This document shows positions 29,526 through 43,181 of a DNA stretch of 64,000 nt, piece by piece. The stretch is from NCBI GenBank assembly GCA_017411435.1, contig JAFQQD010000031.1, forward strand, positions 99,777 to 163,776, written 5' to 3'. Position 1 is the stretch's first letter. Each line of letters begins with the position of its first letter. The DNA comes from Clostridia bacterium. GTDB taxonomy: Bacteria; Bacillota; Clostridia; UMGS1883. The notes under the pieces are model-generated. The model was given only the letters and a program-made list of their open reading frames with translations, did no database searches and was not told the DNA's origin. Made by a program: the position numbers and the translations under genes.

Positions 29526-30461
29526 ATGAAAAAAGTATTCATCGATGGCAGCGCCGGAACAACGGGACTGCGCATATTGGAAAGACTTTCAAAGAGAAGT
29601 GATATTGAGCTTATAAGACTTCCCGAAGAACTTCGCAAGGACAGTGAGGCAAGAAAGAAAGCTCTTAACGAATGTGACATTGCTTTCCTTTGTCTTCCCG
29701 ATGTGGCAGCGATAGAGGCTGTTTCTATGATAGAAAATGAAAATGTGGTTGTGCTTGATACATCAACGGCTCACAGAACGAACGATGCATGGGCATACGG
29801 ATTCCCAGAACTTTCAAAAGAGCATTTTGAAAAGGTTGCCTCTGCAAAGAGGATTGCCGTACCGGGCTGTCACGCAAGCGGATTTATTGCGCTTATCTAC
29901 CCGCTCATTGAGAAAGGCATATTGGGTAAGGACGCTCTTTTGACCTGTCACAGTATTACAGGATACAGTGGCGGCGGCAAGAGTATGATTGCTCAGTACG
30001 AGGACAGCGAAAGAGATAATCTTCTTGACGCACCCCGTCAGTACGCACTCGGCCAGAAGCATAAGCATCTTCCCGAAATGGCAAAGGTCACAGGGCTTAG
30101 TAACGCTCCCGTCATCTGCCCTATCGTTTCTGATTTTTACAGCGGCATGGTTGTGACAATTCCCATATTCAAAAGTCAGCTTGAAGACGGGTTCGGTATT
30201 GAAGATATAAAAAATGCGTACAAGGAAAAATACACAGGTAAGATTGTTACATACAGTGAATCTATCAGCGAAGAAGGACTTATAAGCGCAAACGCTCTTT
30301 CTTTCAAGGACTCGATGCAGGTAACCGTTGAAGGTAACGAAGACAGAATCCTTCTTATCGCAAGATACGACAATCTCGGTAAAGGTGCGTCAGGTGCAGC
30401 ACTTGAATGTATGAACATCGTAATGGGCGAAGAGCCCGGGGCGATGCTTGACATACTGTGA
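29526..30461 (+). CDS. argC: N-acetyl-gamma-glutamyl-phosphate reductase (short 'uncommon' ArgC form).
   Basis: 311 aa. Rossmann N-terminus IDGSAGTTG and active-site Cys in VPGCHASG. It is the first gene of the arg cluster, followed by argJ. Confidence 0.8.
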   Translation: MKKVFIDGSAGTTGLRILERLSKRSDIELIRLPEELRKDSEARKKALNECDIAFLCLPDVAAIEAVSMIENENVVVLDTSTAHRTNDAWAYGFPELSKEHFEKVASAKRIAVPGCHASGFIALIYPLIEKGILGKDALLTCHSITGYSGGGKSMIAQYEDSERDNLLDAPRQYALGQKHKHLPEMAKVTGLSNAPVICPIVSDFYSGMVVTIPIFKSQLEDGFGIEDIKNAYKEKYTGKIVTYSESISEEGLISANALSFKDSMQVTVEGNEDRILLIARYDNLGKGASGAALECMNIVMGEEPGAMLDIL

Positions 30462-30477
30462 GAAAGGACTGAAACTT

Positions 30478-31701
30478 ATGTTTAATATAATTGAAGGCGG
30501 TATTTGTGCACCGCAGGGATTCAGTGCAAACGGTATCCACTGTGGAATCCGTAAGAACCGTACAAAGCGCGATATTGCACTTATTGTAAGCAGCACTCCC
30601 GCTGCTGCAGCGGCTACATACACTACAAATCTTGTTAAGGGTGCGCCCCTTACAGTTACAAAGAATAATATCGCTGACGGTTATGCAAAGGCAGTAATCT
30701 GCAACAGCGGTAATGCAAACACCTGCAACGCAGACGGAATAGAAGTTGCCGAAAAGATGTGCTCCCTTGTAGCAGATGAACTTGGTATTGACAGCAAAGA
30801 TGTTATCGTGGCATCAACGGGTGTTATAGGACAGAAGCTTGATATAGGGTCTATTGAAAATGGACTTCCCGAGCTTGTAAAAGGTCTTGGAGAGAGTGCC
30901 GAGCACAGTGACTACGCGTCCGAAGGTATTCTTACAACAGATACTGTAAAGAAGGAAATTGCAGTAGGCTTCACTCTCGGTGGTAAGGAATGTAAGATTG
31001 CAGGCATTGCCAAGGGCAGCGGTATGATTCATCCCAATATGGCTACAATGCTTGTATTCATTACAACGGATGCATCTATCTCCCCTGCTATGCTTCAGAA
31101 GGCACTTGGTGAGGATATCAAAAAGACATTCAATATGGTCAGTGTTGACGGTGATACATCCACAAACGATATGGTGTCTGTAATGGCTAACGGTCTTGCA
31201 GGAAACAAGATGATTGAATCTGATGGCGAGGATTTTGAAATCTTTGCCAAAGCACTTAATACAGTTACAGTTTACCTGTGCAAAATGATTGCAGGCGATG
31301 GCGAAGGTGCTACAAAAATGCTTGAATGCAGTGTAAGCGGCGCAAAGGATGAAAAATGTGCAAAGACAGTTGCAAAATCAGTTATCTGCTCATCACTTCT
31401 CAAGGCGGCGATGTTTGGTGCCGATGCTAACTGGGGCAGAGTACTCTGCGCAATCGGTTACAGCGGCGCGGATGTTGATGTAAATAAGATTGATGTTGCG
31501 TTCTCATCAAAAGAGGGGAAAATTGAAGTTTGTAAAAACGGCGCAGGAATTGATTTTTCCGAAGATGTTGCAAAGAAGGTACTTCTTGAGAAGGATATAA
31601 ATATTTTAATTAACCTCAATGACGGAGAGGAAACCGCTACCGCATGGGGTTGTGACCTTACATATGATTATGTGAAGATTAACGGCGACTACCGTACTTG
31701 A
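30478..31701 (+). CDS. argJ: Bifunctional glutamate N-acetyltransferase/amino-acid acetyltransferase ArgJ.
   Basis: Start at ATG 30478 (MFNIIEGGICAPQGF; RBS AAAGGA). Autoproteolytic ATML/T site (HPNMATMLVFITTDA). Confidence 0.9.
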   Translation: MFNIIEGGICAPQGFSANGIHCGIRKNRTKRDIALIVSSTPAAAAATYTTNLVKGAPLTVTKNNIADGYAKAVICNSGNANTCNADGIEVAEKMCSLVADELGIDSKDVIVASTGVIGQKLDIGSIENGLPELVKGLGESAEHSDYASEGILTTDTVKKEIAVGFTLGGKECKIAGIAKGSGMIHPNMATMLVFITTDASISPAMLQKALGEDIKKTFNMVSVDGDTSTNDMVSVMANGLAGNKMIESDGEDFEIFAKALNTVTVYLCKMIAGDGEGATKMLECSVSGAKDEKCAKTVAKSVICSSLLKAAMFGADANWGRVLCAIGYSGADVDVNKIDVAFSSKEGKIEVCKNGAGIDFSEDVAKKVLLEKDINILINLNDGEETATAWGCDLTYDYVKINGDYRT

Positions 31702-31951
31702 TGATGGGTTGCCAAAAAGCAGCACCGACTACAAAACGCAAAGAAAAATTGTATGTGTACTTTTATTAAGTCATTTATCAAAGCGTATTTGAATTTTCAA
31801 TGTAGAAATTCGCTGTGGCAAATTTCGATTTTAAGCGTTTTGTTCCGCTCAAACTTCACCCGCGGAGTATCTATATACACCTACGGGTTCAGTTTGAACG
31901 CTCTGCACTACTTTTTTACAACCCTAAACACTATACTTGGAGGATTTAACC

Positions 31952-32806
31952 ATGACAAATGCACAGAGAGCCGAAGTACTTACCCAGGCACTTCCCTACA
32001 TTCAGAAATACAATAATAAGATAATAGTTGTTAAATACGGCGGAAACGCTATGATTAATGACGAACTTAAGGATGCCGTTATGGGCGATATCGTTCTGAT
32101 GTCTCTTATCGGTATTAAAGTTGTGCTTGTGCATGGCGGCGGTCCTGAAATTACACAGATGCTTAATCAGGTCGGCAAAAAGAGTGAGTTCGTCAACGGA
32201 CTCCGTGTTACCGACAAGGAAACTGTTGACATTGTGCAGATGGTCCTTGCAGGTAAAGTTAACAAAAACCTTGTAAACCTTCTTCATCACAAGGGCGGAA
32301 ACGCCATCGGTCTGTGCGGTATTGACGGACATATGATTGAGGCGGAAGTACTTAATCCCGAGCTTGGCTATGTCGGAGAAATAACAAATGTCAATGTTGC
32401 TCCCATTATTGATGTACTTGAAAAGGGTTATATTCCTGTTATTTCAACAGTAGGATGTGACAAGGAAGGTAATGTTTATAACATCAATGCTGATACTGCG
32501 GCTGCAAAAATTGCAGGAATACTCGGCGCTGAAAGTCTTATTTCCATGACAGATATTGAGGGTATCCTTCGTGATAAGGACGACCCCTCTACTCTTATTT
32601 CCAAAATCTATACCAACGAAGCACCTGCTCTTATTGAGGAGGGTGTTATCTCCGGTGGTATGATACCAAAAGTTGAGTGCTGTATTGACGCTATCAACAG
32701 CGGTGTGAGAAAGGTATTTATAATTGACGGCAGAATCCCCCACTCCATACTTATTGAAACCCTTACCAATGAAGGTATTGGTACTATGTTTGTACGCGGG
32801 GAATGA
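31952..32806 (+). CDS. argB: Acetylglutamate kinase.
   Basis: Start at ATG 31952 (RBS GGAGGA). VVKYGGNAM...LVHGGGP motifs. Confidence 0.9.
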   Translation: MTNAQRAEVLTQALPYIQKYNNKIIVVKYGGNAMINDELKDAVMGDIVLMSLIGIKVVLVHGGGPEITQMLNQVGKKSEFVNGLRVTDKETVDIVQMVLAGKVNKNLVNLLHHKGGNAIGLCGIDGHMIEAEVLNPELGYVGEITNVNVAPIIDVLEKGYIPVISTVGCDKEGNVYNINADTAAAKIAGILGAESLISMTDIEGILRDKDDPSTLISKIYTNEAPALIEEGVISGGMIPKVECCIDAINSGVRKVFIIDGRIPHSILIETLTNEGIGTMFVRGE

Positions 32807-32886
32807 TTTTGTGTTTTCTTTACGGTGCAATCTATGAGTTTGCACCGTAATTTGGGATATATAGGTTTGAAAGAAGGACACTTAGA

Positions 32887-34050
32887 ATGAACACTTTTGA
32901 AAAAGATAAGCAATTTGTCGCTCCTACCTATGCGCGTTTTCCGCTTGAAATCACAGGCGGCAAAGGGGCAATACTTACAGGTAGCGACGGTAAAGAATAT
33001 ATTGACCTCGGAAGCGGTATCGCGGTAAACACATTCGGCGCGTGTGACGAGGAATGGGTAAATGCAGTAAAGGCGCAGCTTGATAAGTTTGCGCATACAT
33101 CAAACCTTTACTACACATCTCCCTGCGCTGACCTTGCCGAAATGTTATGCAATCGCACAGGAATGAAAAATGTATTCTTCTCAAATTCCGGTGCGGAGGC
33201 TAACGAAACTGCAATTAAGGCGGCAAGAAGATACGGCGCACTTAATAAGGGTAATGATTACTACACAATCGTAACCCTTGAAAAGAGCTTCCACGGAAGA
33301 ACGCATACAACTCTTGCGGCAACAGGTCAGGAAAATTTCCATAAGGAATTTTTACCCCTGACTGAGGGATTTGTTCACACCCCTCCCAATGATATTGAAA
33401 AGCTTCGCGAAACAGTTCAGAATAATAAATGTTGCGCGATAATGATTGAACTTGTTCAGGGCGAGGGCGGAGTAAATGCACTTGACCAAAAATTTGTTGA
33501 TGAAATTGCAAAGCTTTGCAAGGAACAGGACCTTATCCTGATTGCTGATGAGGTGCAGACAGGTAACGGCAGAACGGGTAAACTTTACGCATACATGCAC
33601 TACGGCATTACACCCGATGTTGTATCTACTGCAAAGGGACTTGGAGGCGGACTTCCGCTTGGAGCAACAATGCTTGGCGAAAAGGTAAAGGATATTTTCA
33701 CCCCCGGGCTTAACGGTTCAACATTCGGTGCAAATCCCGTTTGCTGCAGCGGTGCGATAAGTATTCTTTCCAGACTTACCGACAAATTCCTTGAGGAAGT
33801 ATCAGAAAAGGCACAACTCGTGCGCGATACCTTATCGGGTGCAGACGGAATTGAGGATATTTCGGGACTTGGCCTTATGATAGGCATTAAAACAGTAAAA
33901 GAAGCAAAGGAAGTTGTAAACTACTGTATGGAGCGCGGCGTTTTGGTCCTCACCGCAAAAGACAGAGTAAGACTTCTTCCCCCGCTTAACATAGAAAAAG
34001 AGGTGCTTTCAAAAGCGCTTGAAATCATTAAGGAGGCATGTAAATTATGA
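32887..34050 (+). CDS. argD: Acetylornithine aminotransferase (class III PLP aminotransferase).
   Basis: 387 aa. ...DEVQTG.GRTG...TAKGLGGG (PLP Lys). Confidence 0.9.
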   Translation: MNTFEKDKQFVAPTYARFPLEITGGKGAILTGSDGKEYIDLGSGIAVNTFGACDEEWVNAVKAQLDKFAHTSNLYYTSPCADLAEMLCNRTGMKNVFFSNSGAEANETAIKAARRYGALNKGNDYYTIVTLEKSFHGRTHTTLAATGQENFHKEFLPLTEGFVHTPPNDIEKLRETVQNNKCCAIMIELVQGEGGVNALDQKFVDEIAKLCKEQDLILIADEVQTGNGRTGKLYAYMHYGITPDVVSTAKGLGGGLPLGATMLGEKVKDIFTPGLNGSTFGANPVCCSGAISILSRLTDKFLEEVSEKAQLVRDTLSGADGIEDISGLGLMIGIKTVKEAKEVVNYCMERGVLVLTAKDRVRLLPPLNIEKEVLSKALEIIKEACKL

Positions 34051-34949
34051 AACACTTTCTGAAACTTGGAGATTTAAGCAAGGAAGAGATTGTAGAAATA
34101 CTTGACCTTGCGGATAAACTTAAATATGAAAAGAGAAACGGTATTGAGCACCATCTCTTGAAGGGCAAGACACTCGGTATGATTTTCCAGAAATCATCTA
34201 CAAGAACGCGTGTTTCTTTCGAGGTTGGTATGTTTGACCTTGGCGGAAGTGCTCTGTTCTTAAGTCCCAGAGATTTGCAAATAGGTCGCGGCGAGGTTGT
34301 GCAGGATACTGCACGCGTGCTTTCAAGATTCCTTGATGGTATTATGATTCGTACCTTCGAGCAAAAGGAAGTTGAAGATTTTGCCTCTTACGGCGATATC
34401 CCGATAATAAACGGTCTTACAGACTACTGTCATCCCTGTCAGGTGCTTGCAGACCTTATGACAATCCGTGAAAAGAAGGGCAATCTTGAAGGACTTAAGA
34501 TGTGCTTCGTAGGCGACGGTAACAATATGGCAAACTCACTTATCGTTGGCGGTATCAAGATGGGTATGGAAGTTTCGATTGCTTGCCCGGGCGGCTACGA
34601 GCCTGATGCTGAAATTATGAAGTGGGCAAAAGAGAATGGCAAATTCACCTGCACACCTGATATTTATGAAGCAGCAAAGGGTGCCGATGTTCTCTATACT
34701 GATGTATGGGCATCCATGGGTCAGGAAGAGGAATTCAATGAAAGAGCAAAGATATTCAAGGATTATCAGATAAATTCTGACCTTATGAAAGTTGCAAACG
34801 AGGGCGCTATGGTGCTTCACTGTCTTCCTGCACACCGCGGAGAAGAAATCACTGCAGAAATTATCGAGCAGCACGCTGACGAAATTTTCGAAGAGGCAGA
34901 AAACAGACTTCATGCACAGAAAGCCGTTATGGTTAAGTTAATGGCGTAA
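34047..34949 (+). CDS. argF: Ornithine carbamoyltransferase.
   Basis: 300 aa. Carbamoyl-phosphate site STRTRVSFE and ornithine site HCLP. The start overlaps the argD stop. Confidence 0.9.
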   Translation: MKHFLKLGDLSKEEIVEILDLADKLKYEKRNGIEHHLLKGKTLGMIFQKSSTRTRVSFEVGMFDLGGSALFLSPRDLQIGRGEVVQDTARVLSRFLDGIMIRTFEQKEVEDFASYGDIPIINGLTDYCHPCQVLADLMTIREKKGNLEGLKMCFVGDGNNMANSLIVGGIKMGMEVSIACPGGYEPDAEIMKWAKENGKFTCTPDIYEAAKGADVLYTDVWASMGQEEEFNERAKIFKDYQINSDLMKVANEGAMVLHCLPAHRGEEITAEIIEQHADEIFEEAENRLHAQKAVMVKLMA

Positions 34950-34995
34950 CTTTGTTTATAATTTTTGACTATACATTTTGGAAAGGCTTGGTTAT

Positions 34996-36042
34996 ATGAA
35001 AGCATATTTGACACTCGAAAACGGCAGTGTTTTCGAAGGCACCCTAATCGGTGCCGAGGGCGAAACTGTCGGTGAAATAGTTTTCTCAACTACTATGGGA
35101 AGTTACATTGAAGCACTGACTGACCCCGCATCTTACGGACAGATTCTCGTGCAGACTTTCCCCCTTATTGGTAACTACGGAATGATTTATTCCGATATGG
35201 AAAGCGATAAGATTCATGCAAAGGGTTATGTAGTACGCGAGATGTGTGACATCCCCTCTAACTTCCGCTGCGAGGGAACGCTTGACAGTTTCCTTAAAGA
35301 ACAGGGAATCGTGGGAATATGCGGCGTTGACACTCGTGAAATCACAAAGATTATCCGCGAGGAAGGTACAATGGCAGCACGCATCACAACAAAGGCACCC
35401 GATGGCGAAAAGATTACACTTCCTGAAATTAAGGACGCAGCAGCCGAAGTTTCCACAAAGGAAAAATATACAGTTGGCGAAGGAAAGGTTAAAATTGCAT
35501 TCCTTGACCTTGGAACAAAGAAAAGCGCAGTAAATGTACTTGCTTCGCGTGGCGCAAGTGTTGATGTGCTCCCATTTGGCACAAAGGCGGACGAGCTCTT
35601 ATCATATGACGCAATTTATCTTTCAGACGGTCCGGGAAATCCCGATGACTTAAAAGAAATTGCCGAAGAAATAAAGAAAGTTTTCGGTAAAAAGCCCATT
35701 CTTGCAACAGGGCTTGGACACCAGATACTTGCGATGGCAAACGGTGCAAAGTGCGAAAAGCTCCACCACGGACATCACGGCGCAAATCAGCCCGTAAAGC
35801 AGATTGAAAGCGGAAGAGTCTATATCACTCTTCAGAATCATAACTTTGCGGTATCGAGCGACTCTCTCCCCGACTTTGCCAAGGTTACTTATGAAAACCT
35901 TAACGATAAGAGTGTTGAGGGTATTGAATACATCGGTAAGGATGCTCTCTCCCTTCAGTTTGCTCTTATTGAGGGCGAGGGTCCTAACGAAACAGGTTTT
36001 CTTTATAACAAATATTTTGAAATGATTGGAGGTAAGCACTGA
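34996..36042 (+). CDS. carA: Carbamoyl-phosphate synthase small (glutamine amidotransferase) subunit.
   Basis: Start at ATG 34996 (RBS GGAAAGG). N-terminal CPSase small-chain domain and GATase triad region (...GHQIL..., H.GHHG). Confidence 0.85.
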   Translation: MKAYLTLENGSVFEGTLIGAEGETVGEIVFSTTMGSYIEALTDPASYGQILVQTFPLIGNYGMIYSDMESDKIHAKGYVVREMCDIPSNFRCEGTLDSFLKEQGIVGICGVDTREITKIIREEGTMAARITTKAPDGEKITLPEIKDAAAEVSTKEKYTVGEGKVKIAFLDLGTKKSAVNVLASRGASVDVLPFGTKADELLSYDAIYLSDGPGNPDDLKEIAEEIKKVFGKKPILATGLGHQILAMANGAKCEKLHHGHHGANQPVKQIESGRVYITLQNHNFAVSSDSLPDFAKVTYENLNDKSVEGIEYIGKDALSLQFALIEGEGPNETGFLYNKYFEMIGGKH

Positions 36043-39000
36043 TGCCTAAGAATAAAGACATTAAAAAGGTACTCGTTATAGGCAGCGGCCCTATTGTAAT
36101 CGGACAGGCTGCAGAGTTTGACTACGCAGGCGCTCAGGCATGCCGTGTTCTTCGTGATGAGGGCGTGAATATCGTCCTTGTTAACTCCAATCCTGCTACA
36201 ATTATGACAGATAAGGCGCTCGCGGATGAGATTTATCTCGAGCCGCTTACAACAGATACAATCAAGAGAATTATTGAAAAGGAACGCCCCGACAGTATCC
36301 TTGCATCACTTGGCGGACAGACAGGTCTTACAATTGCGATGCAGCTTGATAAGGAAGGCTACCTTGACAAAATGGGCGTAAAACTCATCGGCACAAATGC
36401 CGAAGCGATTGACCGCGCTGAAGACCGTGAGCTTTTCAAGGAAACGATGCTCAAAATCGGTCAGAGTTGTATTCCGTCCGATATCGCAACAACTGTTGAC
36501 GATTCTCTTGCAATTGCAGAGAAAATCGGTTACCCCGTAATTGTTCGTCCCGCATTCACACTCGGTGGTGCGGGCGGCGGTGTTGCATATGACCGTGACA
36601 CACTTGCAAAAATTGCGAATAACGGTCTTACACTCTCCCCCATTACTCAGGTACTTATTGAAAAATACATTTACGGATGGAAAGAAGTAGAGTTTGAGGT
36701 TATGCGTGACCATGCAGGAAACGCTATCACTATTTGTAGCATGGAAAATGTGGACCCCGTTGGTATCCACACAGGCGACAGTATCGTTGTTGCTCCTGCA
36801 GCTACACTTTCAGATAAAGAATATTCAATGCTCAGAAAAGCGGCACTTGACATTATTACTGAACTCAAAATCGAGGGTGGATGTAACTGTCAGTTCGCAC
36901 TTAATCCCGACAGCTTTGAATACGCAGTTATTGAGGTTAACCCCCGTGTTTCCCGTTCGTCTGCTCTTGCAAGTAAGGCGACAGGCTACCCGATTGCAAA
37001 GGTTACTACAAAAATTGCGCTCGGCTACACACTTGACGAAATTAAAAACGATGTTACCGGCATAACTTATGCTTGTTTTGAGCCTGCCGTTGACTATATG
37101 GTTGTTAAATTCCCCAAGTGGCCGTTTGACAAATTTGTGTACGCCGACAGAAAACTCGGTACACAGATGAAGGCAACGGGCGAAGTAATGTCTATCGGTA
37201 ATTCATTTGAATCTGCGCTTATGAAGGCGGTTCGCGGTGCTGAACTTAAGACTGAAACTCTTTTCCATAAGGAAGTTCACGAAATTGAAGATATCGAAAA
37301 GAAACTTTACGACCTTGACGACCTTCGTATTTTTACTGTTTATGAGGCGCTTGTAAGAGGAATTAGTGTTGACAGAATCAACGAAATCACACGCATTGAC
37401 AAGTGGTTCTTATCCAAGATTAAAAATATTGTAGATTATGAAAAGAGCATCCTTGGAAATCTTACAGAGGAACTTTACGAAAAGGGTAAGAAACTCGGCT
37501 TTACCGACAAGGCACTTGAGGAAATCAGCGGATGCAAAGTTCCCACTCATAAAAACTGTGTTTACAAAATGGTTGACACCTGCGGCGGCGAATTTGCTGC
37601 AAAGACACCTTACTTCTATTCAACTTATGATGAGAACTGTGAGGCAAGAGCAGTTTCTACCAATAATAAAAAGGTTATCGTTTTAGGCTCAGGTCCCATC
37701 AGAATCGGTCAGGGTATCGAGTTTGACTACTCCTCCGTTCATTGTGTATGGGCACTCAAGGATATGGGCTACGAGGTTATTATCATAAATAACAACCCCG
37801 AAACTGTTTCAACAGACTTTGACACAGCAGACCGCCTTTACTTTGAGCCGCTTACTCCCGAAGATGTAATGAATGTTATCGAGGTTGAAAAGCCCGAGGG
37901 CGTTGTTGTTGCATTCGGTGGACAGACCGCAATCAAGCTCGTTAAATTCCTTGACGAAAGCGGCATCAAAATCCTTGGTACATCTGCAAAGAGTATCGAT
38001 ATGGCAGAAGACCGTGAGCAGTTTGACGCACTCCTTGAAAAGTTCAACATTAAGAGACCCAGTGGTCTTTCTGTAATGACAAAGGAAGAGGCTCTTAACG
38101 CTGCCGAAACACTTGGTTACCCCGTTCTTCTTCGTCCTTCATATGTAATCGGCGGTCAGAATATGACTATTGCTTATAAGGAAGAAGATGTTGTGCAGTA
38201 TATGGACATCATCCTCGCACAGAAGATTGAAAACCCCGTACTTGTCGATAAGTACATGATGGGTAAGGAGCTTGAAGTTGATATCATAAGCGATGGTAAG
38301 GATGTTCTTATCCCCGGCATTATGGAGCATGTTGAACGCGCAGGCGTACACAGTGGTGACTCCATTGCCGTATATCCCCCGTTCAATGTAACTGACAAGA
38401 TGCTTGATAAGATTGTTGACTGCTCGACAAAACTTGCACTTTCTCTTAAGACACAGGGACTTATCAACATTCAGTATGTTATATATGATAATGAACTTTA
38501 TGTAATCGAGGTTAATCCCCGTGCCTCAAGAACAGTTCCTTATATCAGTAAGGTAACAGGCATCCCCATGATTGACCTTGCAACCCAGGTTATGCAGGGA
38601 GCGTCCCTTCTTTCCCTCGGATACGGAAGCGGACTTTACAAGATGCCTCCCTACTACGCAGTTAAGGTTCCCGTTTTCTCGTTTGAAAAACTTTCGGGCA
38701 TCAACTCAATTCTTGGTCCTGAAATGAAGTCAACAGGCGAGGTGCTCGGTATTGGTAAAACTCTTAACGAAGCACTTTACAAGGGACTTATGGCGGCAGG
38801 CTTCAACCTTGAAAGCCGCGGTGGTGTATATATCAGCGTTGATTCAAAGGATAAGTATGACCTTATCGAGCTTGCAAAGAAACTCCACGATGCAGGTCTT
38901 GAGCTCTACGCCGATGAAATGAATGCGCTCATCATTGATTCGCTGGGTATTCCCGTTGAAACTGTTGACGGCGAAAAGATTTACTCACTTATCGAAAGCG

Positions 39001-40046
39001 AAAAGGTTGGTTATATCATCCACACCAATTCCGGCCGTCCCAAGGAAATCGAGAAGTTTATAAGACTTCATCGCCGTGCGCTTCAACTCAGTATCGCGTG
39101 TCTTACATCGCTTGATACTGCGCACGCACTTGCGGACATTCTTTTAAGCCGATTTAATCAGTACAATACTGAACTTACAGATATAGCGAAACTTCGTACG
39201 GAAAAACTTAACATACCCTTTATCAAGATGCAGGGTACGGGCGATGACTATATCTTCATCAACAACTTTGACGGCAAGATTGCATTCCCGGAGGCTCTTG
39301 CAATCGTATTCTCCGACCGTCACAGAGGTATCGGTGCAGACGGACTTGTTCTTATTGAAAAATCCGAGGTTGCCGATGCGAAGATGCGTATATTCAACAC
39401 AGACGGCAGCGAAGGTAAAATGGCAGGTAACTCTATCCGCTGCGTAGGTAAGTACCTTTACGATAACGGATATACAACTCACCGTCATATCACAATTGAA
39501 ACTGCAAGCGGTATCAGAAAACTTACGCTTCATCTTTTCGACCACAAGGTTACAAGCGTAACTGTTCAGATGGGCGATCCGCAGTTTGACCCCAAGGCTA
39601 TCCCCGTTGATATGCCCGGAGATAAGGTAATAAACGAAAAAGTTGCTATCGGTGGTAAGGATTATAATATAACCTGTCTTTCAATTGGTAATCCGCACTG
39701 TGTTGTTATCTGCGACAATGTGTATAACATCGATGTTAAGACAATCGGTCCCCGTTTTGAAAATGCACCTATCTTCCCTGAAAGAATCAATACTGAGTTT
39801 GTCAAGATTATTGACAAGCGCACAATCAGAATGAGAGTTTGGGAGCGCGGCAACGGTGAAACACAGGCTTGCGGTACAGGTGCCGTAGCAGCAGCAATTG
39901 CTGCAGTTGAAAACGGATACTGTGAAAAGGATACTGATATCATCGTAAGAGTTGAGGGTGGCGAGCTTATCGTCCGCTACAGTGATGAAGGCGTATTCCT
40001 GACAGGTGACGCTGAAAAGGTATTCGAAGGCATTTATGAATATTAA
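36042..40046 (+). CDS. carB: Carbamoyl-phosphate synthase large subunit, continuing in frame into a C-terminal diaminopimelate epimerase (DapF) domain.
   Basis: 1334 aa. Residues 1 to ~1066 are a full CarB: two ATP-grasp halves, the oligomerisation domain and the MGS-like domain. Residues ~1068-1334 (nt ~39225-40046) read IPFIKMQGTGDDYIF...GNSIRC...GNPHCV...ACGTGA, i.e. DapF with both catalytic Cys. The overlap with the carA stop (ATGA) suggests translational coupling. Confidence 0.85.
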   Translation: MPKNKDIKKVLVIGSGPIVIGQAAEFDYAGAQACRVLRDEGVNIVLVNSNPATIMTDKALADEIYLEPLTTDTIKRIIEKERPDSILASLGGQTGLTIAMQLDKEGYLDKMGVKLIGTNAEAIDRAEDRELFKETMLKIGQSCIPSDIATTVDDSLAIAEKIGYPVIVRPAFTLGGAGGGVAYDRDTLAKIANNGLTLSPITQVLIEKYIYGWKEVEFEVMRDHAGNAITICSMENVDPVGIHTGDSIVVAPAATLSDKEYSMLRKAALDIITELKIEGGCNCQFALNPDSFEYAVIEVNPRVSRSSALASKATGYPIAKVTTKIALGYTLDEIKNDVTGITYACFEPAVDYMVVKFPKWPFDKFVYADRKLGTQMKATGEVMSIGNSFESALMKAVRGAELKTETLFHKEVHEIEDIEKKLYDLDDLRIFTVYEALVRGISVDRINEITRIDKWFLSKIKNIVDYEKSILGNLTEELYEKGKKLGFTDKALEEISGCKVPTHKNCVYKMVDTCGGEFAAKTPYFYSTYDENCEARAVSTNNKKVIVLGSGPIRIGQGIEFDYSSVHCVWALKDMGYEVIIINNNPETVSTDFDTADRLYFEPLTPEDVMNVIEVEKPEGVVVAFGGQTAIKLVKFLDESGIKILGTSAKSIDMAEDREQFDALLEKFNIKRPSGLSVMTKEEALNAAETLGYPVLLRPSYVIGGQNMTIAYKEEDVVQYMDIILAQKIENPVLVDKYMMGKELEVDIISDGKDVLIPGIMEHVERAGVHSGDSIAVYPPFNVTDKMLDKIVDCSTKLALSLKTQGLINIQYVIYDNELYVIEVNPRASRTVPYISKVTGIPMIDLATQVMQGASLLSLGYGSGLYKMPPYYAVKVPVFSFEKLSGINSILGPEMKSTGEVLGIGKTLNEALYKGLMAAGFNLESRGGVYISVDSKDKYDLIELAKKLHDAGLELYADEMNALIIDSLGIPVETVDGEKIYSLIESEKVGYIIHTNSGRPKEIEKFIRLHRRALQLSIACLTSLDTAHALADILLSRFNQYNTELTDIAKLRTEKLNIPFIKMQGTGDDYIFINNFDGKIAFPEALAIVFSDRHRGIGADGLVLIEKSEVADAKMRIFNTDGSEGKMAGNSIRCVGKYLYDNGYTTHRHITIETASGIRKLTLHLFDHKVTSVTVQMGDPQFDPKAIPVDMPGDKVINEKVAIGGKDYNITCLSIGNPHCVVICDNVYNIDVKTIGPRFENAPIFPERINTEFVKIIDKRTIRMRVWERGNGETQACGTGAVAAAIAAVENGYCEKDTDIIVRVEGGELIVRYSDEGVFLTGDAEKVFEGIYEY

Positions 40047-40073
40047 GCGGTTGGCAGCGCCAACCTTTCGTTT
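40047..40073 (+). terminator. Intrinsic terminator after carB.
   Basis: GCGGTTGGCagcGCCAACCtttcgttt. Confidence 0.65.
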
Positions 40074-40079
40074 AAGTTT

Positions 40080-40134
40080 GGGGACAGGTCAATTTTTGTT
40101 ACGCCTGCGGCTTACAAAAATGTCCCCGTCCCCC
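40080..40134. repeat. GC-rich REP-like long imperfect palindrome (GGGGACAGG...CCCCGTCCCC), copy 1.
   Basis: GGGGACAGGTCAATTTTTGTTacgcctgcggcTTACAAAAATGTCCCCGTCCCC. A related copy is at 46187-46275. Confidence 0.7.
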
Positions 40135-40214
40135 TTAACACCCCCTACATTTAATGAATAACTATGTATAAATTCAACGATTTTTTGCATATTTCCAAAA
40201 AATTATGAATTTTT

Positions 40215-40297: not shown

Positions 40298-41518
40298 ATG
40301 GATAAGAAAGATATCAAAAAAGTAGTTCTTGCCTACTCAGGCGGTCTTGACACATCAATCATTATTCCGTGGCTTAAGGAAAACTACAACAACTGTGAAG
40401 TTGTTGCAGTGGCAGGTAATGTTGGTCAGAATGATGAACTTGACGGTCTTGAAGAAAAGGCAATAAAGACAGGTGCATCAAAACTTTATGTACTTGACCT
40501 TACAGATGACTATGTAGACAACTACATCATCCCCACAATGAAGGCAGGCGCAATTTACGAGGAATATCTCCTCGGTACAAGCCATGCGCGTCCCTGTATT
40601 GCAAAGGGTCTTGTAGACATCGCAATCAAGGAAAATGCTGACGCTATCTGCCACGGCTGTACAGGTAAGGGTAATGACCAGGTTCGTTTTGAACTTGCTA
40701 TCAAGCATTTCGCTCCTGAAATGCCCGTTATTGCTCCCTGGCGTGAATGGGACATCAAGTCTCGTGACGAAGAAATCGACTATGCAGAAGCTCACAATGT
40801 TCCTCTTAAGATAAACCGTGAAACAAACTATTCAAAGGATAAGAACCTCTGGCATTTAAGCCACGAAGGTCTTGACCTCGAAGATACAGGTAACGAGCCG
40901 CAGTACGAGAAGGAAGGCTTCCTTGAAATGGGTGTATCTCCCGTTACTGCTCCCGATGAACCCACTTACATCACAATCGATTTTGAAAAGGGTGTTCCCG
41001 TAGCATTCAACGATAAGAAGATGAGCGCGAAGGAAATTATCCTTGCACTTAACGAAGTTGGCGGCAAGAACGGTATCGGTATCCTTGACATCGTTGAAAA
41101 CCGTCTTGTTGGTATGAAGTGCCGTGGTGTATATGAAACTCCCGGCGGTGCAATTCTTTACAAGGCACACAGCGTTCTTGAATCAATCTGCCTTGACAGA
41201 ATGACACTTCACCACAAGCAGCGTCTTGCAATCACATTTGCAGAACTTGTTTACGATGGTCAGTGGTTCACTCCCCTTCGCGAGGCTCTCAGCGCATTCG
41301 TTGACAAGACACAGGAAAATGTTACAGGTAAGGTAAGACTTAAACTTTACAAGGGTAATATGATTAACGCAGGTGTATGGAGTGACTACAGCCTTTATTC
41401 TGAAGAAATCGCAACATTTGGTGAAAGCGATTACAATCAGAAGGATGCTGAAGGATTTATCAACCTTTACGGTCTTCCCATTGCTGTACAGGCTATGGTT
41501 GATGCAAAAAATAAATAA
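40298..41518 (+). CDS. argG: Argininosuccinate synthase.
   Basis: 406 aa. N-terminal PP-loop AYSGGLDTS. Confidence 0.95.
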
Positions 41519-41752
41519 GGATGTATAAAAACAGCACCGACCGCATAAAGCATCGTTTTTTATAATTATTAAGCGTGTGCTAAAAGCGAGGTTTTATCGG
41601 TTGGTTGAAATTCGCAAAACGAATTTTTCCGAATATGTGCTTTATGCTACGGACAAACTTCACCTCTCGCTGTATCACATACAGCGTCGGGCAAGCCCTC
41701 GCGGGTTCAGTTTGTTCGTTCTGCACTATTTTTCTCCATCCTAAATCACATA

Positions 41753-41796
41753 CTGTAGCAAGGTGAAAATCACCTTGCTACAGTTTACTATTATTT
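41753..41796 (+). terminator. Strong leader hairpin plus T-rich tract immediately upstream of the argH RBS. Candidate attenuator.
   Basis: CTGTAGCAAGGTGAaaaTCACCTTGCTACAG is a perfect 14-bp stem. It is followed by TTTACTATTATTT and then AAGGAGG and ATG 41811. Confidence 0.6.
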
Positions 41797-41810
41797 AAGG
41801 AGGTATTCCT

Positions 41811-43181
41811 ATGGACAAAATGTGGGCAGGGCGTTTTTCAAAGGCGCTCGATAAAGAGGCGGATGACTTTAACTCTTCCATACATTTTGACTGCAAAATG
41901 TATAAGCAGGATATAAAAGGCTCGATTGCACACGCAACTATGCTTGCTGAGTGCAACATTATTTCAAAGAGTGATGCAGACGCTATCATTAAAGGGCTTG
42001 AAGGTATTTTAACCGACCTTGAAAGTGGCGCTCTCGGTTTTGATTTTGATGCCGAAGATATACATATGTTTGTGGAAGCTGAACTTACAAAGCGCATCGG
42101 CGATGTCGGTAAAAGGCTTCATACCGCAAGAAGCCGTAACGATCAGGTTGCGCTTGATATCCGTCTTTTTATGCGTGATGAGGCAAACGATATTATCGCG
42201 CTTATTAAAAAACTGCTTTCTGCAATACTTGTTCAGGCAGAGGCGAATAAGGAGACAATTCTCCCCGGTTACACTCATCTTCAGCGTGCGCAACCGATTA
42301 TGTTTGCACATCACTTATGCGCATACGCGATGATGTTCATCCGCGATATCGGAAGAATTGAGGATGCGCTCAAAAGAATGAACTTCTCCCCCTTAGGTTC
42401 CTGCGCGCTTGCAGGAACAACCTACGAAACAAACCGCGATATGACAGCTTCGCTTCTGGGTTTTGACGGAATCACACTCAACAGTATTGACGGTGTCTCT
42501 GACCGTGATTTCTGTGTTGAACTGATGAGTGCATTTGCTCTTATTATGACACATCTTTCGCGTTTTGCCGAGGAAGTAATCCTCTGGTCATCGTGGGAAT
42601 TTAAGTTCGTTGAACTTGACGATTCATACACAACGGGTTCATCCATAATGCCGCAGAAAAAGAATCCCGATATGGCAGAGCTTGTCCGCGGTAAGACGGG
42701 CAGAGTCTACGGCGACCTCATGGCGATGCTTACAATTCTCAAAGGTCTTCCCCTTGCGTACAACAAGGATATGCAGGAAGATAAGGAAGCCATTTTTGAT
42801 AGCAGCGAAACTGTTAAGAAGTGCCTTAGCGTATTCGCGCCGATGATTGAGACAATGTCTGTTCGCGCAGACAAAATGTATGCTGCTGCAGGCGAAGGCT
42901 TCATCAATGCGACAGACCTTGCAGACTATCTTGTTAAGAAAGGTCAGCCTTTCAGAAGTGCTTATAAGACGGTAGGACAGATTGTCGGCAAGTGTGTTGC
43001 TGAAGGAAAGACACTTGAAACACTTACTCTTTCAGAATACAAAAAGTTTGACAATCTTTTCGAAGAAGATTTGTATGCTGATATCGACCTTAAGAACTGC
43101 GCAGAAAAGCGTATTTCAGCAGGCGGTACATCGGTAGAATCGATAAACAAACAAATTGAATATATAAAGAGATTTGTATAA
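41811..43181 (+). CDS. argH: Argininosuccinate lyase.
   Basis: 456 aa. Fumarate lyase signature GSSIMPQKKNP. Confidence 0.95.
   Translation: MDKMWAGRFSKALDKEADDFNSSIHFDCKMYKQDIKGSIAHATMLAECNIISKSDADAIIKGLEGILTDLESGALGFDFDAEDIHMFVEAELTKRIGDVGKRLHTARSRNDQVALDIRLFMRDEANDIIALIKKLLSAILVQAEANKETILPGYTHLQRAQPIMFAHHLCAYAMMFIRDIGRIEDALKRMNFSPLGSCALAGTTYETNRDMTASLLGFDGITLNSIDGVSDRDFCVELMSAFALIMTHLSRFAEEVILWSSWEFKFVELDDSYTTGSSIMPQKKNPDMAELVRGKTGRVYGDLMAMLTILKGLPLAYNKDMQEDKEAIFDSSETVKKCLSVFAPMIETMSVRADKMYAAAGEGFINATDLADYLVKKGQPFRSAYKTVGQIVGKCVAEGKTLETLTLSEYKKFDNLFEEDLYADIDLKNCAEKRISAGGTSVESINKQIEYIKRFV

What the first reader, a model, noticed from the sequence alone, without database searches (positions are those of the whole stretch)
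39190..40046. carB reads straight through into a complete diaminopimelate epimerase (DapF) domain
The 1334-aa ORF holds a full-length CarB, including the C-terminal MGS-like allosteric domain ending ...RRALQLSIACLTSLDTAHALADILL. After a linker of about 20 aa it continues into an intact DapF domain with the N-terminal F-x-K-M-x-G-x-G-N/D-D-F motif and both catalytic cysteines (GNSIRC, ACGTGA), plus the GNPHCV motif. DapF residues precede the internal Met, so this is not read-through of a separate dapF start. A CPSase-DapF fusion links arginine/pyrimidine precursor synthesis to meso-DAP and peptidoglycan synthesis. To my knowledge this is not a described architecture. The whole arg cluster (argCJBDF-carAB-argGH) is otherwise canonical.
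Basis: partly seen in the sequence, partly recalled or inferred. Interest (0 to 1): 0.55.

Follow-up and report, generated by a model that had tools for sequence, protein, structure and literature searches.

The report
CarB fused to half-dead DapF
The carbamoyl-phosphate synthetase large subunit really is fused to a diaminopimelate epimerase domain, a fusion shared by many gut Clostridia, but here that domain has lost one of its two catalytic cysteines while keeping its substrate pocket, so it is probably no longer an ordinary epimerase.

Summary
The 1334-aa ORF (36042..40046, +) is real and uninterrupted. Residues 1-1034 are a complete CarB, and residues 1059-1332 are a full DapF fold (276 bits against a cut-off of 115).

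It is not an artefact. The best 80 species-representative genomes all span the junction, and 67 of them hold complete ORFs of 1334-1358 aa.

The architecture is not unknown. The Oscillibacter valericigenes genome already names it 'carbamoyl-phosphate synthase large chain/diaminopimelate epimerase'. I found no paper on it.

The Cys in GNSIRC is not catalytic. The catalytic Cys73 position is Ala1128 (GCA, 39423-39425). Cys217 and all DAP-binding residues are intact.

Across 81 loci, position 73 is A 54, C 18, G 6, S 2 and F 1. Only Cys-type loci have dapL directly downstream (10 of 18, against 0 of 63). All 126 stand-alone-length DapFs examined keep Cys73.

The Ala-type domain is under strong purifying selection (dN/dS 0.075).

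Best reading: an ancestral bifunctional enzyme whose DapF module became a ligand-binding, probably regulatory, appendage of CarB's allosteric domain. That last step is inferred, not shown. I could not test whether these genomes carry another route to meso-DAP.

The parts
34978..36042 (+). carA, the glutaminase small subunit of carbamoyl-phosphate synthetase. Its stop overlaps the start of the fusion gene.
   Evidence: NCBIfam NF009475 at 375 bits against a cut-off of 221. carA lies immediately upstream of the fusion in nearly all related loci.
36042..40046 (+). The whole carB::dapF fusion ORF, 1334 aa plus the stop codon.
   Evidence: 67 species-representative genomes hold uninterrupted orthologous ORFs of 1334-1358 aa at 59-92% identity.
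36042..39143 (+). CarB module, aa 1-1034. It holds two ATP-grasp synthetase halves, the oligomerisation domain and the MGS-like allosteric domain (about aa 925-1034).
   Evidence: NF003671 at 1457 bits and TIGR01369 at 1429 bits. Pfam PF25596, PF02786, PF02787 and a weak PF02142 hit at aa 941-1022.
39144..39215 (+). Junction, aa 1035-1058 (ILLSRFNQYNTELTDIAKLRTEKLN). This is the conserved CarB C-terminal tail running straight into DapF strand 1.
   Evidence: E. coli CarB aligns to its residue 1051 of 1073 at window aa 1031. T-E-L-x-D-I...R are invariant in alignment A1. Pairwise identity of this segment (0.57) matches that of the DapF module. The AF2 model gives pLDDT of about 79-88 here, with pTM 0.81 for the two-domain model.
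39216..40037 (+). DapF-like module, aa 1059-1332, with two DAP_epimerase fold repeats.
   Evidence: TIGR00652 at 276 bits. Best solved relative is 2otn, E 4e-68. Foldseek TMt is 0.83-0.92 to DapF structures.
39423..39425 (+). Codon GCA = Ala1128, at the position of catalytic Cys73 (H. influenzae numbering).
   Evidence: Cys (TGY) to Ala (GCN) needs two base changes. The same state is found in L003 and L004 and in 54 of 81 loci.
39870..39872 (+). Codon for Cys1277, the retained second catalytic cysteine (Cys217 equivalent) in ACGTGA.
   Evidence: It is conserved in 51 of 53 non-Cys73 proteins.
40049..40065 (+). Terminator-like GC-rich hairpin followed by TTTCGTTT, three bases after the stop codon.
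   Evidence: consensus scan only.
29526..34949 (+). argC, argJ, argB, argD and argF, upstream in the same orientation.
   Evidence: NCBIfam equivalogs. The same order is found upstream of the fusion in many relatives.
40298..43181 (+). argG and argH downstream.
   Evidence: NCBIfam NF001770 at 574 bits and TIGR00838 at 638 bits. These genes lie downstream of the fusion only in the closest relatives, L002-L004.

Best explanation
Shown:
- This is a genuine, vertically inherited carB::dapF gene fusion found across many gut and rumen Clostridia (MAGs and isolates labelled Oscillospiraceae, Ruminococcaceae/Ruminococcus, Christensenellaceae, Eubacteriales).
- The CarB part is a complete large subunit of glutamine-dependent carbamoyl-phosphate synthetase. 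It is encoded after carA inside an arginine operon.
- The DapF part is joined with no free linker to the end of CarB's allosteric domain.
- In this window's clade the DapF general base Cys73 is replaced (Ala1128).
- Cys217 and every diaminopimelate-contacting residue are conserved, and the domain is under strong purifying selection.

Inferred:
- The ancestral fusion was a true bifunctional CarB-DapF enzyme of the DapL pathway. That form survives in the Cys-type, Ruminococcus-like clade, where dapL lies next door.
- In the window's clade the module can no longer carry out the two-thiol epimerisation.
- It is kept as a diaminopimelate-binding clamshell rigidly coupled to CarB's allosteric domain. 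It would act as a regulatory or sensor module, or at the least a ligand-stabilised structural one, that couples carbamoyl-phosphate supply to the DAP/lysine/cell-wall precursor pool.
- meso-DAP would then be made by another enzyme: a separate DapF, Ddh or DapF2.
For: The fusion is real and widespread:
- Searches confirm the ORF and both domains.
- The best 80 of 599 relatives in species-representative genomes span the junction.
- 67 complete ORFs of 1334-1358 aa have no internal stop.

Loss of Cys73:
- Alignments to four solved DapFs and to H. influenzae DapF all place Ala1128 at Cys73.
- Across 81 loci, position 73 is A 54, C 18, G 6, S 2, F 1.
- The variety of replacements (A, G, S, F) argues that this position is no longer catalytic.
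- A midpoint-rooted NJ tree places all clade II members as non-Cys and shows further losses inside the Cys clade.
- All 126 stand-alone-length DapFs among the 150 closest 50%-cluster representatives keep Cys73. Every non-Cys hit is a fragment or chimera of the CarB fusion.
- The C83A mutant (Cys73 equivalent) of C. glutamicum DapF almost completely loses activity (PMC5296763).

The domain is still under selection:
- N64, G74, N75, N157, H159, N190, E208, R209, C217, G218 and T219 are 96-100% conserved in the non-Cys group.
- DapF divergence relative to CarB divergence is the same in the Cys and non-Cys groups.
- dN/dS between the window and L003/L004 is 0.075 for the DapF module and 0.05 for CarB.

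Pathway context follows the Cys state:
- dapL (TIGR03542, 514 bits) lies directly downstream in 10 of 18 Cys-type loci and 0 of 63 non-Cys loci. Fisher p = 2e-8, not corrected for phylogeny.

Tight coupling to CarB:
- The junction is conserved.
- The AF2 model has pLDDT 90.5 and pTM 0.81, while DapF alone accounts for a TM of only about 0.6 of the query.

Precedents and alternative routes:
- E. coli DapF activates RppH by direct binding (PMC6061791, PMC4227774).
- Alternative routes to meso-DAP exist in gut bacteria: Ddh in 643 genomes, and DapF2 (PMC9026213; GapMind 2026 preprint).
Against: - No binding or regulation has been measured. The sensor role is an inference from conservation.
The 64-kb window contains none.
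- The wall of Dysosmobacter welbionis contains meso-DAP (PMC13599835). Dysosmobacter spp. carry the Ala-type fusion (Dysosmobacter sp. NSJ-60 and a Dysosmobacter MAG; D. welbionis itself was not checked). These organisms need meso-DAP from somewhere, and if the fusion is their only DapF homologue it must be active.
- Retention of Cys217 in 51 of 53 proteins suggests chemistry, not just binding.
- Buried polar active-site residues can also be conserved for fold stability.
- The tree is neighbour-joining and midpoint-rooted with no outgroup.
- The inter-domain geometry rests on pTM only. No PAE or coordinates were available.
Confidence: 0.42

Rival explanations
1. The Ala-type DapF module is still the organism's working diaminopimelate epimerase. 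It would use Cys217 plus a non-canonical second acid/base: a water in the cavity left by Cys to Ala, the His159/Glu208 pair, or the clade-specific Asn211. The protein would then be a true bifunctional CarB-DapF.
For: - All substrate-binding residues and Cys217 are conserved, and dN/dS is 0.075.
- There is a clade-specific S211N change next to E208/R209.
- Ala-type organisms such as Dysosmobacter have meso-DAP walls.
- Curated gut-genome tables list a single DapF gene for O. ruminantium.
- Annotators of O. valericigenes assigned the epimerase role to this gene.
Against: - C83A and C221A mutants of a canonical DapF are almost inactive.
- Position 73 is occupied by A, G, S or even F in different lineages. 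This is not what a defined replacement mechanism predicts.
- The dapL linkage is lost in every non-Cys locus.
- No stand-alone DapF among the 126 examined has dispensed with Cys73.
Confidence: 0.25
2. The module is a catalytically dead relic with no ligand-dependent role. It is retained only because it became structurally indispensable for folding, stability or oligomerisation of the essential CarB subunit. For example, DapF-type dimerisation might hold CPS protomers together.
For: - The catalytic Cys was lost repeatedly.
- There is no free linker, and the two-domain model is confidently packed.
- DapF enzymes are dimers (PMC5296763).
Against: A purely structural role does not explain the 96-100% conservation of eleven ligand-contacting residues, including Cys217, over divergences of 60-70% identity. 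The rate of evolution is also not relaxed relative to Cys-type proteins.
Confidence: 0.18
3. The module has evolved a new one-base reaction on DAP or a related amino acid, using Cys217 alone. Candidates are a dehydratase, an eliminase or an exchange reaction. This would parallel proline-racemase-like enzymes, in which replacing one Cys turns a racemase into a trans-3-hydroxy-L-proline dehydratase.
For: - Cys217 is retained.
- Foldseek recovers the superfamily members that made this kind of switch, such as 6r76 and 4k7g.
Against: - The DAP-specific distal-site residues are unchanged, so there is no sign of a new substrate.
- Only three positions differ systematically from Cys-type proteins.
- There is no obvious need for such a reaction in an arginine operon.
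Confidence: 0.1
4. The fusion is an artefact: a missed stop or frameshift, a chimeric assembly, or read-through of separate carB and dapF genes.
For: One relative (L001) has carB split by an in-frame TAG. Many database entries are fragments.
Against: - The window ORF is continuous and its composition is uniform.
- 67 independent species genomes, including isolates and the complete O. valericigenes chromosome, have the same uninterrupted junction.
- The L001 stop lies far upstream of the junction, in the second synthetase half.
Confidence: 0.01

Closest known systems
Annotated orthologues, for example Oscillibacter valericigenes Sjm18-20 'carbamoyl-phosphate synthase large chain/diaminopimelate epimerase' (P0388, AP012044.1), Pusillibacter faecalis (UniRef name begins 'Multifunct...') and Dysosmobacter spp.
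   Same: The same 1345-aa architecture with carA upstream and the same Ala at the Cys73 position (NTAGNALRC / KMAGNALRC). They were recovered as 85-88% identical relatives of the Oscillibacter-type locus L039. Fusion proteins in the set as a whole are 59-71% identical to the window protein, apart from L003/L004 at 92%.
   Different: These are database annotations only. Most other members are simply called 'carbamoyl-phosphate synthase large subunit', and fragments are called 'diaminopimelate epimerase, partial'. None of these names notes the missing catalytic cysteine. In Oscillibacter the gene is not inside an arg cluster.
Escherichia coli CarAB carbamoyl-phosphate synthetase (PDB 1bxr, 1jdb and others)
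   Same: Full colinearity over CarB. The allosteric domain aligns to E. coli 918-1051. Thr1042 of the ornithine site (identified from memory of the E. coli literature) is conserved in the invariant LTS motif.
   Different: E. coli CarB ends about 22 residues later. Here a 276-aa DapF fold follows. In the window, the positions of E. coli T974, G976, T977 and K993 are replaced or deleted. Their assignment to the nucleotide-effector site is from memory.
Canonical stand-alone DapF (B. anthracis 2otn, cyanobacterial 9mro, H. influenzae 1gqz/2gke)
   Same: Same two-domain fold (TMt 0.83-0.92, 33-41% identity by Foldseek). Same DAP-contacting residues and same Cys217.
   Different: Cys73 is Ala. There is no free N-terminus, and in this window there is no DAP-pathway neighbourhood.
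Engineered DapF active-site mutants (H. influenzae C73S 2q9h; C. glutamicum C83A)
   Same: The same single change at the first catalytic cysteine within an otherwise intact pocket.
   Different: Those are laboratory mutants with nearly no activity. Here the change is natural, ancient, recurrent and maintained under purifying selection.
E. coli DapF as activator of RppH (PDB 6d13; PMC6061791, PMC4227774)
   Same: A DapF fold used to modulate another enzyme by direct protein contact.
   Different: That DapF is still a fully active, separate enzyme. The partner is an RNA pyrophosphohydrolase, and the two proteins are not covalently fused.
Proline-racemase-like trans-3-hydroxy-L-proline dehydratases (6r76, 4k7g)
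   Same: The same superfamily. Loss of one of the two catalytic Cys changes what the fold does (mechanism from general knowledge).
   Different: There the Cys becomes Thr and the substrate pocket is retuned. Here it becomes Ala/Gly/Ser/Phe and the pocket is unchanged.

Membership tests
CarB, glutamine-hydrolysing carbamoyl-phosphate synthase large subunit (NF003671 / TIGR01369) | Whole-protein score above the curated equivalog cut-off, with end-to-end coverage. | tested here: met
   1457.5 bits against a cut-off of 599, and 1429 bits against 1027. Profile positions 1-1046 of 1058 are covered.
CarB, glutamine-hydrolysing carbamoyl-phosphate synthase large subunit (NF003671 / TIGR01369) | Two pre-ATP-grasp plus ATP-grasp synthetase halves and the oligomerisation domain. 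| tested here: met
   PF25596 twice, PF02786 twice, PF02787 once.
CarB, glutamine-hydrolysing carbamoyl-phosphate synthase large subunit (NF003671 / TIGR01369) | C-terminal MGS-like allosteric domain. | tested here: inconclusive
   The domain is present and aligns to E. coli 918-1051. Pfam PF02142 scores only 21 bits, below its gathering score of 24.1. Several positions recalled as E. coli nucleotide-effector residues are changed in the window.
CarB, glutamine-hydrolysing carbamoyl-phosphate synthase large subunit (NF003671 / TIGR01369) | Adjacent carA encoding the glutaminase subunit. | tested here: met
   carA at 34978..36042, NF009475 at 375 bits. The arrangement is conserved in relatives.
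DapF, diaminopimelate epimerase (TIGR00652 / PF01678) | Score above the equivalog cut-off and two DAP_epimerase fold repeats. | tested here: met
   276.1 bits against a cut-off of 114.65. PF01678 matches two stretches at 198.7 bits. Foldseek TMt is up to 0.92.
DapF, diaminopimelate epimerase (TIGR00652 / PF01678) | First catalytic cysteine (Cys73 in H. influenzae, Cys83 in C. glutamicum) in the xCGNG motif. | tested here: not met
   Ala1128, in KMAGNSIRC.
DapF, diaminopimelate epimerase (TIGR00652 / PF01678) | Second catalytic cysteine (Cys217) in the ACG(S/T)G motif. | tested here: met
   Cys1277 in QACGTGA.
DapF, diaminopimelate epimerase (TIGR00652 / PF01678) | DAP-contacting residues N64, G74, N75, N157, N190, E208, R209, G218 and S/T219. 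| tested here: met
   All are present in the window and 96-100% conserved in the non-Cys group. The residue list is recalled from the H. influenzae structures and agrees with the C. glutamicum description in PMC5296763. Asn11 is Asp in the window.
DapF, diaminopimelate epimerase (TIGR00652 / PF01678) | LL-DAP to meso-DAP epimerase activity. | not testable with these tools
   Needs an enzyme assay or complementation.
DapF, diaminopimelate epimerase (TIGR00652 / PF01678) | Genomic association with DAP/lysine pathway genes. | tested here: not met
   No dap, lys or ddh genes were found among the window's ORFs of at least 100 aa, most of which were scanned against NCBIfam. dapL lies downstream only in Cys-type relatives.
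Pseudoenzyme or regulatory ligand-binding domain derived from an enzyme | Loss of a catalytic residue with retention of the fold and binding pocket under purifying selection. | tested here: met
Pseudoenzyme or regulatory ligand-binding domain derived from an enzyme | Demonstrated ligand binding and an effect on the partner's activity. | not testable with these tools
   Requires biochemistry.

The most novel reading that the evidence does not exclude
The Cys73-less DapF module is a pseudoenzyme that has been turned into a new allosteric input of carbamoyl-phosphate synthetase. Its clamshell would close on LL- or meso-diaminopimelate, and the movement would be passed through the linker-less junction to CarB's allosteric domain. 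Arginine and pyrimidine precursor synthesis would then be tuned by the cell-wall/lysine precursor pool. The Cys-type relatives would be the still-bifunctional ancestor state, which would make this a naturally staged series from enzyme fusion to sensor domain.
Probability: 0.3. Interest if true: 0.75.

Novelty: new variant of a known kind. Interest (0 to 1): 0.55.

Why it matters
Three reasons.

1. Annotation. Hundreds of gut and rumen Clostridia genomes carry this gene. It is labelled either plain CarB or 'diaminopimelate epimerase'. Metabolic reconstructions that count it as a working DapF may wrongly predict lysine and meso-DAP prototrophy for the Ala-type majority. Reconstructions that ignore it may miss the only DapF of the Cys-type Ruminococcus-like clade.

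2. Enzyme evolution. The family offers a natural series: stand-alone enzyme, then bifunctional fusion, then a fusion with a disabled but conserved active site. The catalytic residue was lost several times independently. This is a good system for studying how pseudoenzyme domains arise.

3. Regulation. If the module senses DAP, it would be a previously unrecognised allosteric control of carbamoyl-phosphate synthetase, linking arginine/pyrimidine supply to cell-wall precursor supply.

Tried and rejected
- **Short junction queries.** Searching the 5.8-billion protein set with the 434-aa and 440-aa junction pieces returned only fragments shorter than 800 aa that start at internal Met codons. At first this looked like a split MGS-DapF gene. 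L001 showed that a single in-frame TAG explains one such case, and a full-length query recovered the 1345-aa proteins.
- **Second dapF or carB nearby.** tblastn found none in the window or in the 81 related loci.
- **Window annotation.** Most of the window's ORFs of at least 100 aa were scanned with NCBIfam to find dap, lys, ddh or pyr genes. None was found.
- **Rfam.** The whole window at gathering thresholds gave no riboswitch, T-box or any other hit.
- **Nearest stand-alone DapFs.** The only named one is from Absiella/Amedibacillus. The others are unnamed. The context of one stand-alone DapF (L083-L085) is a nitrogen-metabolism cluster of unknown taxon. Neither tells whether Ala-type genomes have a second DapF.
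- **Published gene tables.** The supplementary tables of PMC9026213 list one DapF for O. ruminantium, R. bromii, A. colihominis and C. minuta, and DapF plus Ddh for F. plautii and R. albus. SEED peg numbers could not be tied to the fusion, so this is not decisive.
- **AFDB Foldseek search.** This library was not available.
- **Literature.** Searches for the fusion found nothing on it.
- **Position 76 as a relocated nucleophile.** I considered that Ser or Cys at position 76 might replace the lost Cys. I rejected this because position 76 is S, A, C, N or G in different non-Cys proteins.
- **Internal translation start.** I considered a separate DapF made from an internal start. I rejected this because DapF strand 1 precedes the Met and no Shine-Dalgarno-like sequence lies upstream of it.
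Full report
**1. The observation**

The window holds one ATG-started ORF at 36042..40046 (+) of 1334 aa, with no stop or frameshift anywhere near the junction. NCBIfam matches the CarB equivalog NF003671 over aa 1-1034 (1457 bits, cut-off 599). It matches the DapF equivalog TIGR00652 over aa 1059-1332 (276 bits, cut-off 114.65, profile positions 2-268 of 270). Pfam agrees, although the MGS-like allosteric domain scores below its gathering threshold. Base composition is flat across the junction. The surrounding genes are argC, argJ, argB, argD, argF and carA upstream and argG and argH downstream, all confirmed by NCBIfam. A terminator-like hairpin follows the stop codon.

**2. It is not an artefact**

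A search of about 5.8 billion proteins with the 434-aa junction piece gave 120 best hits, 118 of which carry both PF02142 (MGS) and PF01678 (DAP_epimerase) and the other two PF01678 with CarB ATP-grasp domains. A scan of one genome per species for the conserved DapF peptides found 599 relatives. The best 80 all match across the junction. In 67 of these loci the contig is long enough to hold the whole gene. Each then has an uninterrupted ORF of 1334-1358 aa, 59-92% identical to the window protein, and 66 of the 67 start with ATG. The set includes cultured isolates (Ruminococcaceae bacterium AM07-15, Oscillospiraceae bacterium CM74B_53B). By a later search it also includes the complete chromosome of Oscillibacter valericigenes Sjm18-20. 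carA lies directly upstream almost everywhere. The arg genes lie upstream in many loci but not all.

**3. How the two parts are joined**

E. coli CarB aligns with the window up to aa 1031, which corresponds to its residue 1051 of 1073. It runs directly into DapF strand 1 (…NTELTDIAKLRTEKLN-IPFIKMQGTGDDY…). The segment is as conserved as the DapF module itself: T-E-L-x-D-I…R are invariant in alignment A1, and mean pairwise identity is 0.57. An AlphaFold2 model of aa 901-1334 has mean pLDDT 90.5 and pTM 0.81, with pLDDT of about 79-88 through the junction. The DapF fold alone accounts for a TM of only about 0.6 of the query. The high pTM therefore implies a confidently predicted packing of the two domains. 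This is an inference, because no PAE or coordinates were available.

**4. The key correction**

DapF uses two cysteines, one from each domain, as acid and base. These are Cys73 and Cys217 in H. influenzae and E. coli, and Cys83 and Cys221 in C. glutamicum (PMC5296763, PMC6061791). Cys73 is the first Cys of the motif xCGNGxRC. In every alignment to solved DapFs (2otn, 9mro, 3ejx, 8qzy) and to H. influenzae DapF, that position in the window is Ala1128 (…EGKM-A-GNSIRC…, codon GCA at 39423-39425). Canonical enzymes also have it, and it is not catalytic. Cys217 (Cys1277, ACGTGA) is present, as are the ligand-contacting residues checked at positions 64, 74, 75, 157, 159, 190, 208, 209, 218 and 219. 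Position 11 is Asp rather than Asn in the window. The C83A mutant of C. glutamicum DapF almost completely loses activity.

**5. The pattern across the family**

In the 81 loci, position 73 is Ala in 54, Cys in 18, Gly in 6, Ser in 2 and Phe in 1. A neighbour-joining tree of the CarB part, midpoint-rooted and without an outgroup, splits the family into two clades.
- A Ruminococcus-like clade that mostly keeps Cys73. Non-Cys members sit inside it (L064/L074 Gly, L079 Phe, L061 Gly).
- A larger clade, containing the window, Oscillibacter and Christensenellaceae-labelled MAGs, that is entirely non-Cys.

Among the 150 closest 50%-identity cluster representatives of the DapF module in a library of 1.84 billion proteins, all 126 stand-alone-length DapFs have Cys73. 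Every non-Cys sequence is a fragment or chimera of the CarB fusion. Cys73 is therefore ancestral. Its loss appears confined to the fusion context and happened more than once.

**6. The disabled domain is not decaying**

In the non-Cys group the ligand-contacting residues are 96-100% conserved, and Cys217 is kept in 51 of 53 proteins. Only three positions differ systematically from the Cys-type group: 73 C to A, 211 S to N, and 249 I to V. At matched CarB divergence the DapF module is equally diverged in both groups. Between the window and its nearest relatives L003 and L004, dN/dS is 0.075 for the DapF module and 0.05 for CarB, with dS of about 1.

**7. Pathway context follows the cysteine**

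The gene immediately downstream of the fusion is LL-diaminopimelate aminotransferase DapL (TIGR03542, 514 bits) in 10 of 18 Cys-type loci and in none of 63 non-Cys loci. Fisher p = 2e-8, not corrected for phylogeny. DapL makes LL-DAP, which is the DapF substrate. The Cys-type fusion therefore looks like a true bifunctional enzyme of the DapL pathway, while the Ala-type has lost that linkage.

**8. Interpretation**

Shown:
- The fusion is real, ancient and conserved.
- It has a complete CarB.
- It has a DapF fold with an intact pocket but no Cys73.
- The module is under strong purifying selection.

Inferred: the window's module cannot perform the two-base epimerisation. It is retained as a DAP-binding clamshell coupled to CarB's allosteric domain. 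Its role would be regulatory or sensory, or at the least ligand-stabilised and structural. Another enzyme would then supply meso-DAP. Precedents and alternatives exist. E. coli DapF modulates RppH by direct contact. Gut bacteria commonly use Ddh, or the non-orthologous DapF2, to make meso-DAP.

The main rival is that the module still works as an epimerase by a non-canonical mechanism. Dysosmobacter species carry Ala-type fusions, and the D. welbionis wall contains meso-DAP. If no other route exists in such genomes, this rival wins. This remains the decisive untested point. Two further rivals are a purely structural relic and a new one-base reaction. Both are less well supported, for the reasons given under the rival explanations.

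**9. Novelty**

The architecture is present in public databases. Most full-length copies are named only 'carbamoyl-phosphate synthase large subunit' (RHO51991.1, WP_022288784.1, HCG67874.1). Fragments are named 'diaminopimelate epimerase, partial'. The O. valericigenes genome names it 'carbamoyl-phosphate synthase large chain/diaminopimelate epimerase', and a UniRef name for the Pusillibacter faecalis protein begins 'Multifunct…'. Full-text searches found no paper that discusses the fusion. None of the source names notes the missing cysteine. I therefore rate it as a new variant of known kinds. It is not categorically new, and the fusion as such is already catalogued.

**10. Limits**

- The tree is simple, and the association statistics ignore phylogeny.
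- The list of DAP-contacting residues and the E. coli effector-site residues are recalled from the structural literature. They were only partly checked against PMC5296763.
- Inter-domain geometry rests on pTM alone.
- No function was measured.

Noticed in passing
L001:5941-5943 (GCA_054290425.1, JAZPGL010000014.1): In this relative, carB::dapF is broken by a single in-frame TAG at a conserved Lys codon (…YYAV*VPVFSFEKL…). The gene is therefore called as an 878-aa CarB plus a 449-aa 'MGS+DapF' protein. It is probably a sequencing error or a recent pseudogene.
   Followed up: partly
window 38950-39020 (aa ~970-993 of the fusion): The window's allosteric domain reads LYADEMNA where the family consensus and E. 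coli CarB have ATxGTA (E. coli T974, G976, T977). It also has a 4-residue gap where E. coli has N992-K993-V-H. Only the window, P0001 and P0002 share this. The UMP/IMP effector site may be degenerate in this subclade. The assignment of these E. coli residues to that site is from memory.
   Followed up: partly
proteins P0161, P0260, P0239: These are odd derivatives of the fusion in metagenomes. P0161 joins an ArgF N-terminus to CarB aa 955-end. P0260 joins the CarB N-terminus to the tail and DapF. P0239 joins a hydrogenase-like N-terminus to DapF on a 1.1-kb contig. They are likely deletions or chimeric assemblies.
   Followed up: partly
proteins P0202, P0223, P0252, P0300: Other DapF fusion architectures of 666-692 aa, with the DapF fold at the C-terminus and both cysteines present. 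P0223 has an aminotransferase-like N-terminus. These are a separate set of DapF fusions.
   Followed up: no
L003 against L004, fusion gene: Synonymous divergence between these two close relatives is 0.29 in the CarB part but 0.75 in the DapF part. This suggests recombination or mosaic ancestry within the gene.
   Followed up: no
L027, L034, L039, L082:14035-14763: In Oscillibacter-type loci a DUF1275 membrane protein of about 235-250 aa follows the fusion. In three of the four loci it overlaps the fusion's stop codon; in L034 it starts 101 bases downstream. This suggests translational coupling. The function is unknown.
   Followed up: no
L083-L085: A stand-alone, two-Cys DapF that is 50% identical to the window's module. 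It sits in a nitrogen-metabolism cluster: glutamate synthase, glutamine synthetase, an ANTAR regulator, dapF, pyrG, NAD synthase and an aminotransferase. This is another case of dapF next to a nucleotide/nitrogen gene.
   Followed up: no
window 27888-29135 (+): A 415-aa ORF with YD-repeat / RHS-core similarity lies just upstream of the arg cluster. It looks like a fragment of a toxin-type RHS protein.
   Followed up: no
window 15401-17944 (-): An 846-aa EF-G / Tet(M)-like translational GTPase. It scores well below the cut-offs of both the tetracycline ribosomal-protection model and the EF-G models. It has a C-terminal extension of about 260 aa beyond the matched region.
   Followed up: no
window ~40083-40140 (+): An inverted repeat seen by eye in the carB::dapF-argG spacer (GGGGACAGGTCAATTTTTGT … ACAAAAATGTCCCCGTCCCC). 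No Rfam family matches anywhere in the window.
   Followed up: no
protein database behaviour: Several fragment proteins begin with MCIRDR or MCSSDL, which are typical contig-end artefacts. Short queries returned only proteins shorter than 800 aa, whereas a full-length query returned the 1345-aa proteins. This matters when judging architecture from such hit lists.
   Followed up: yes
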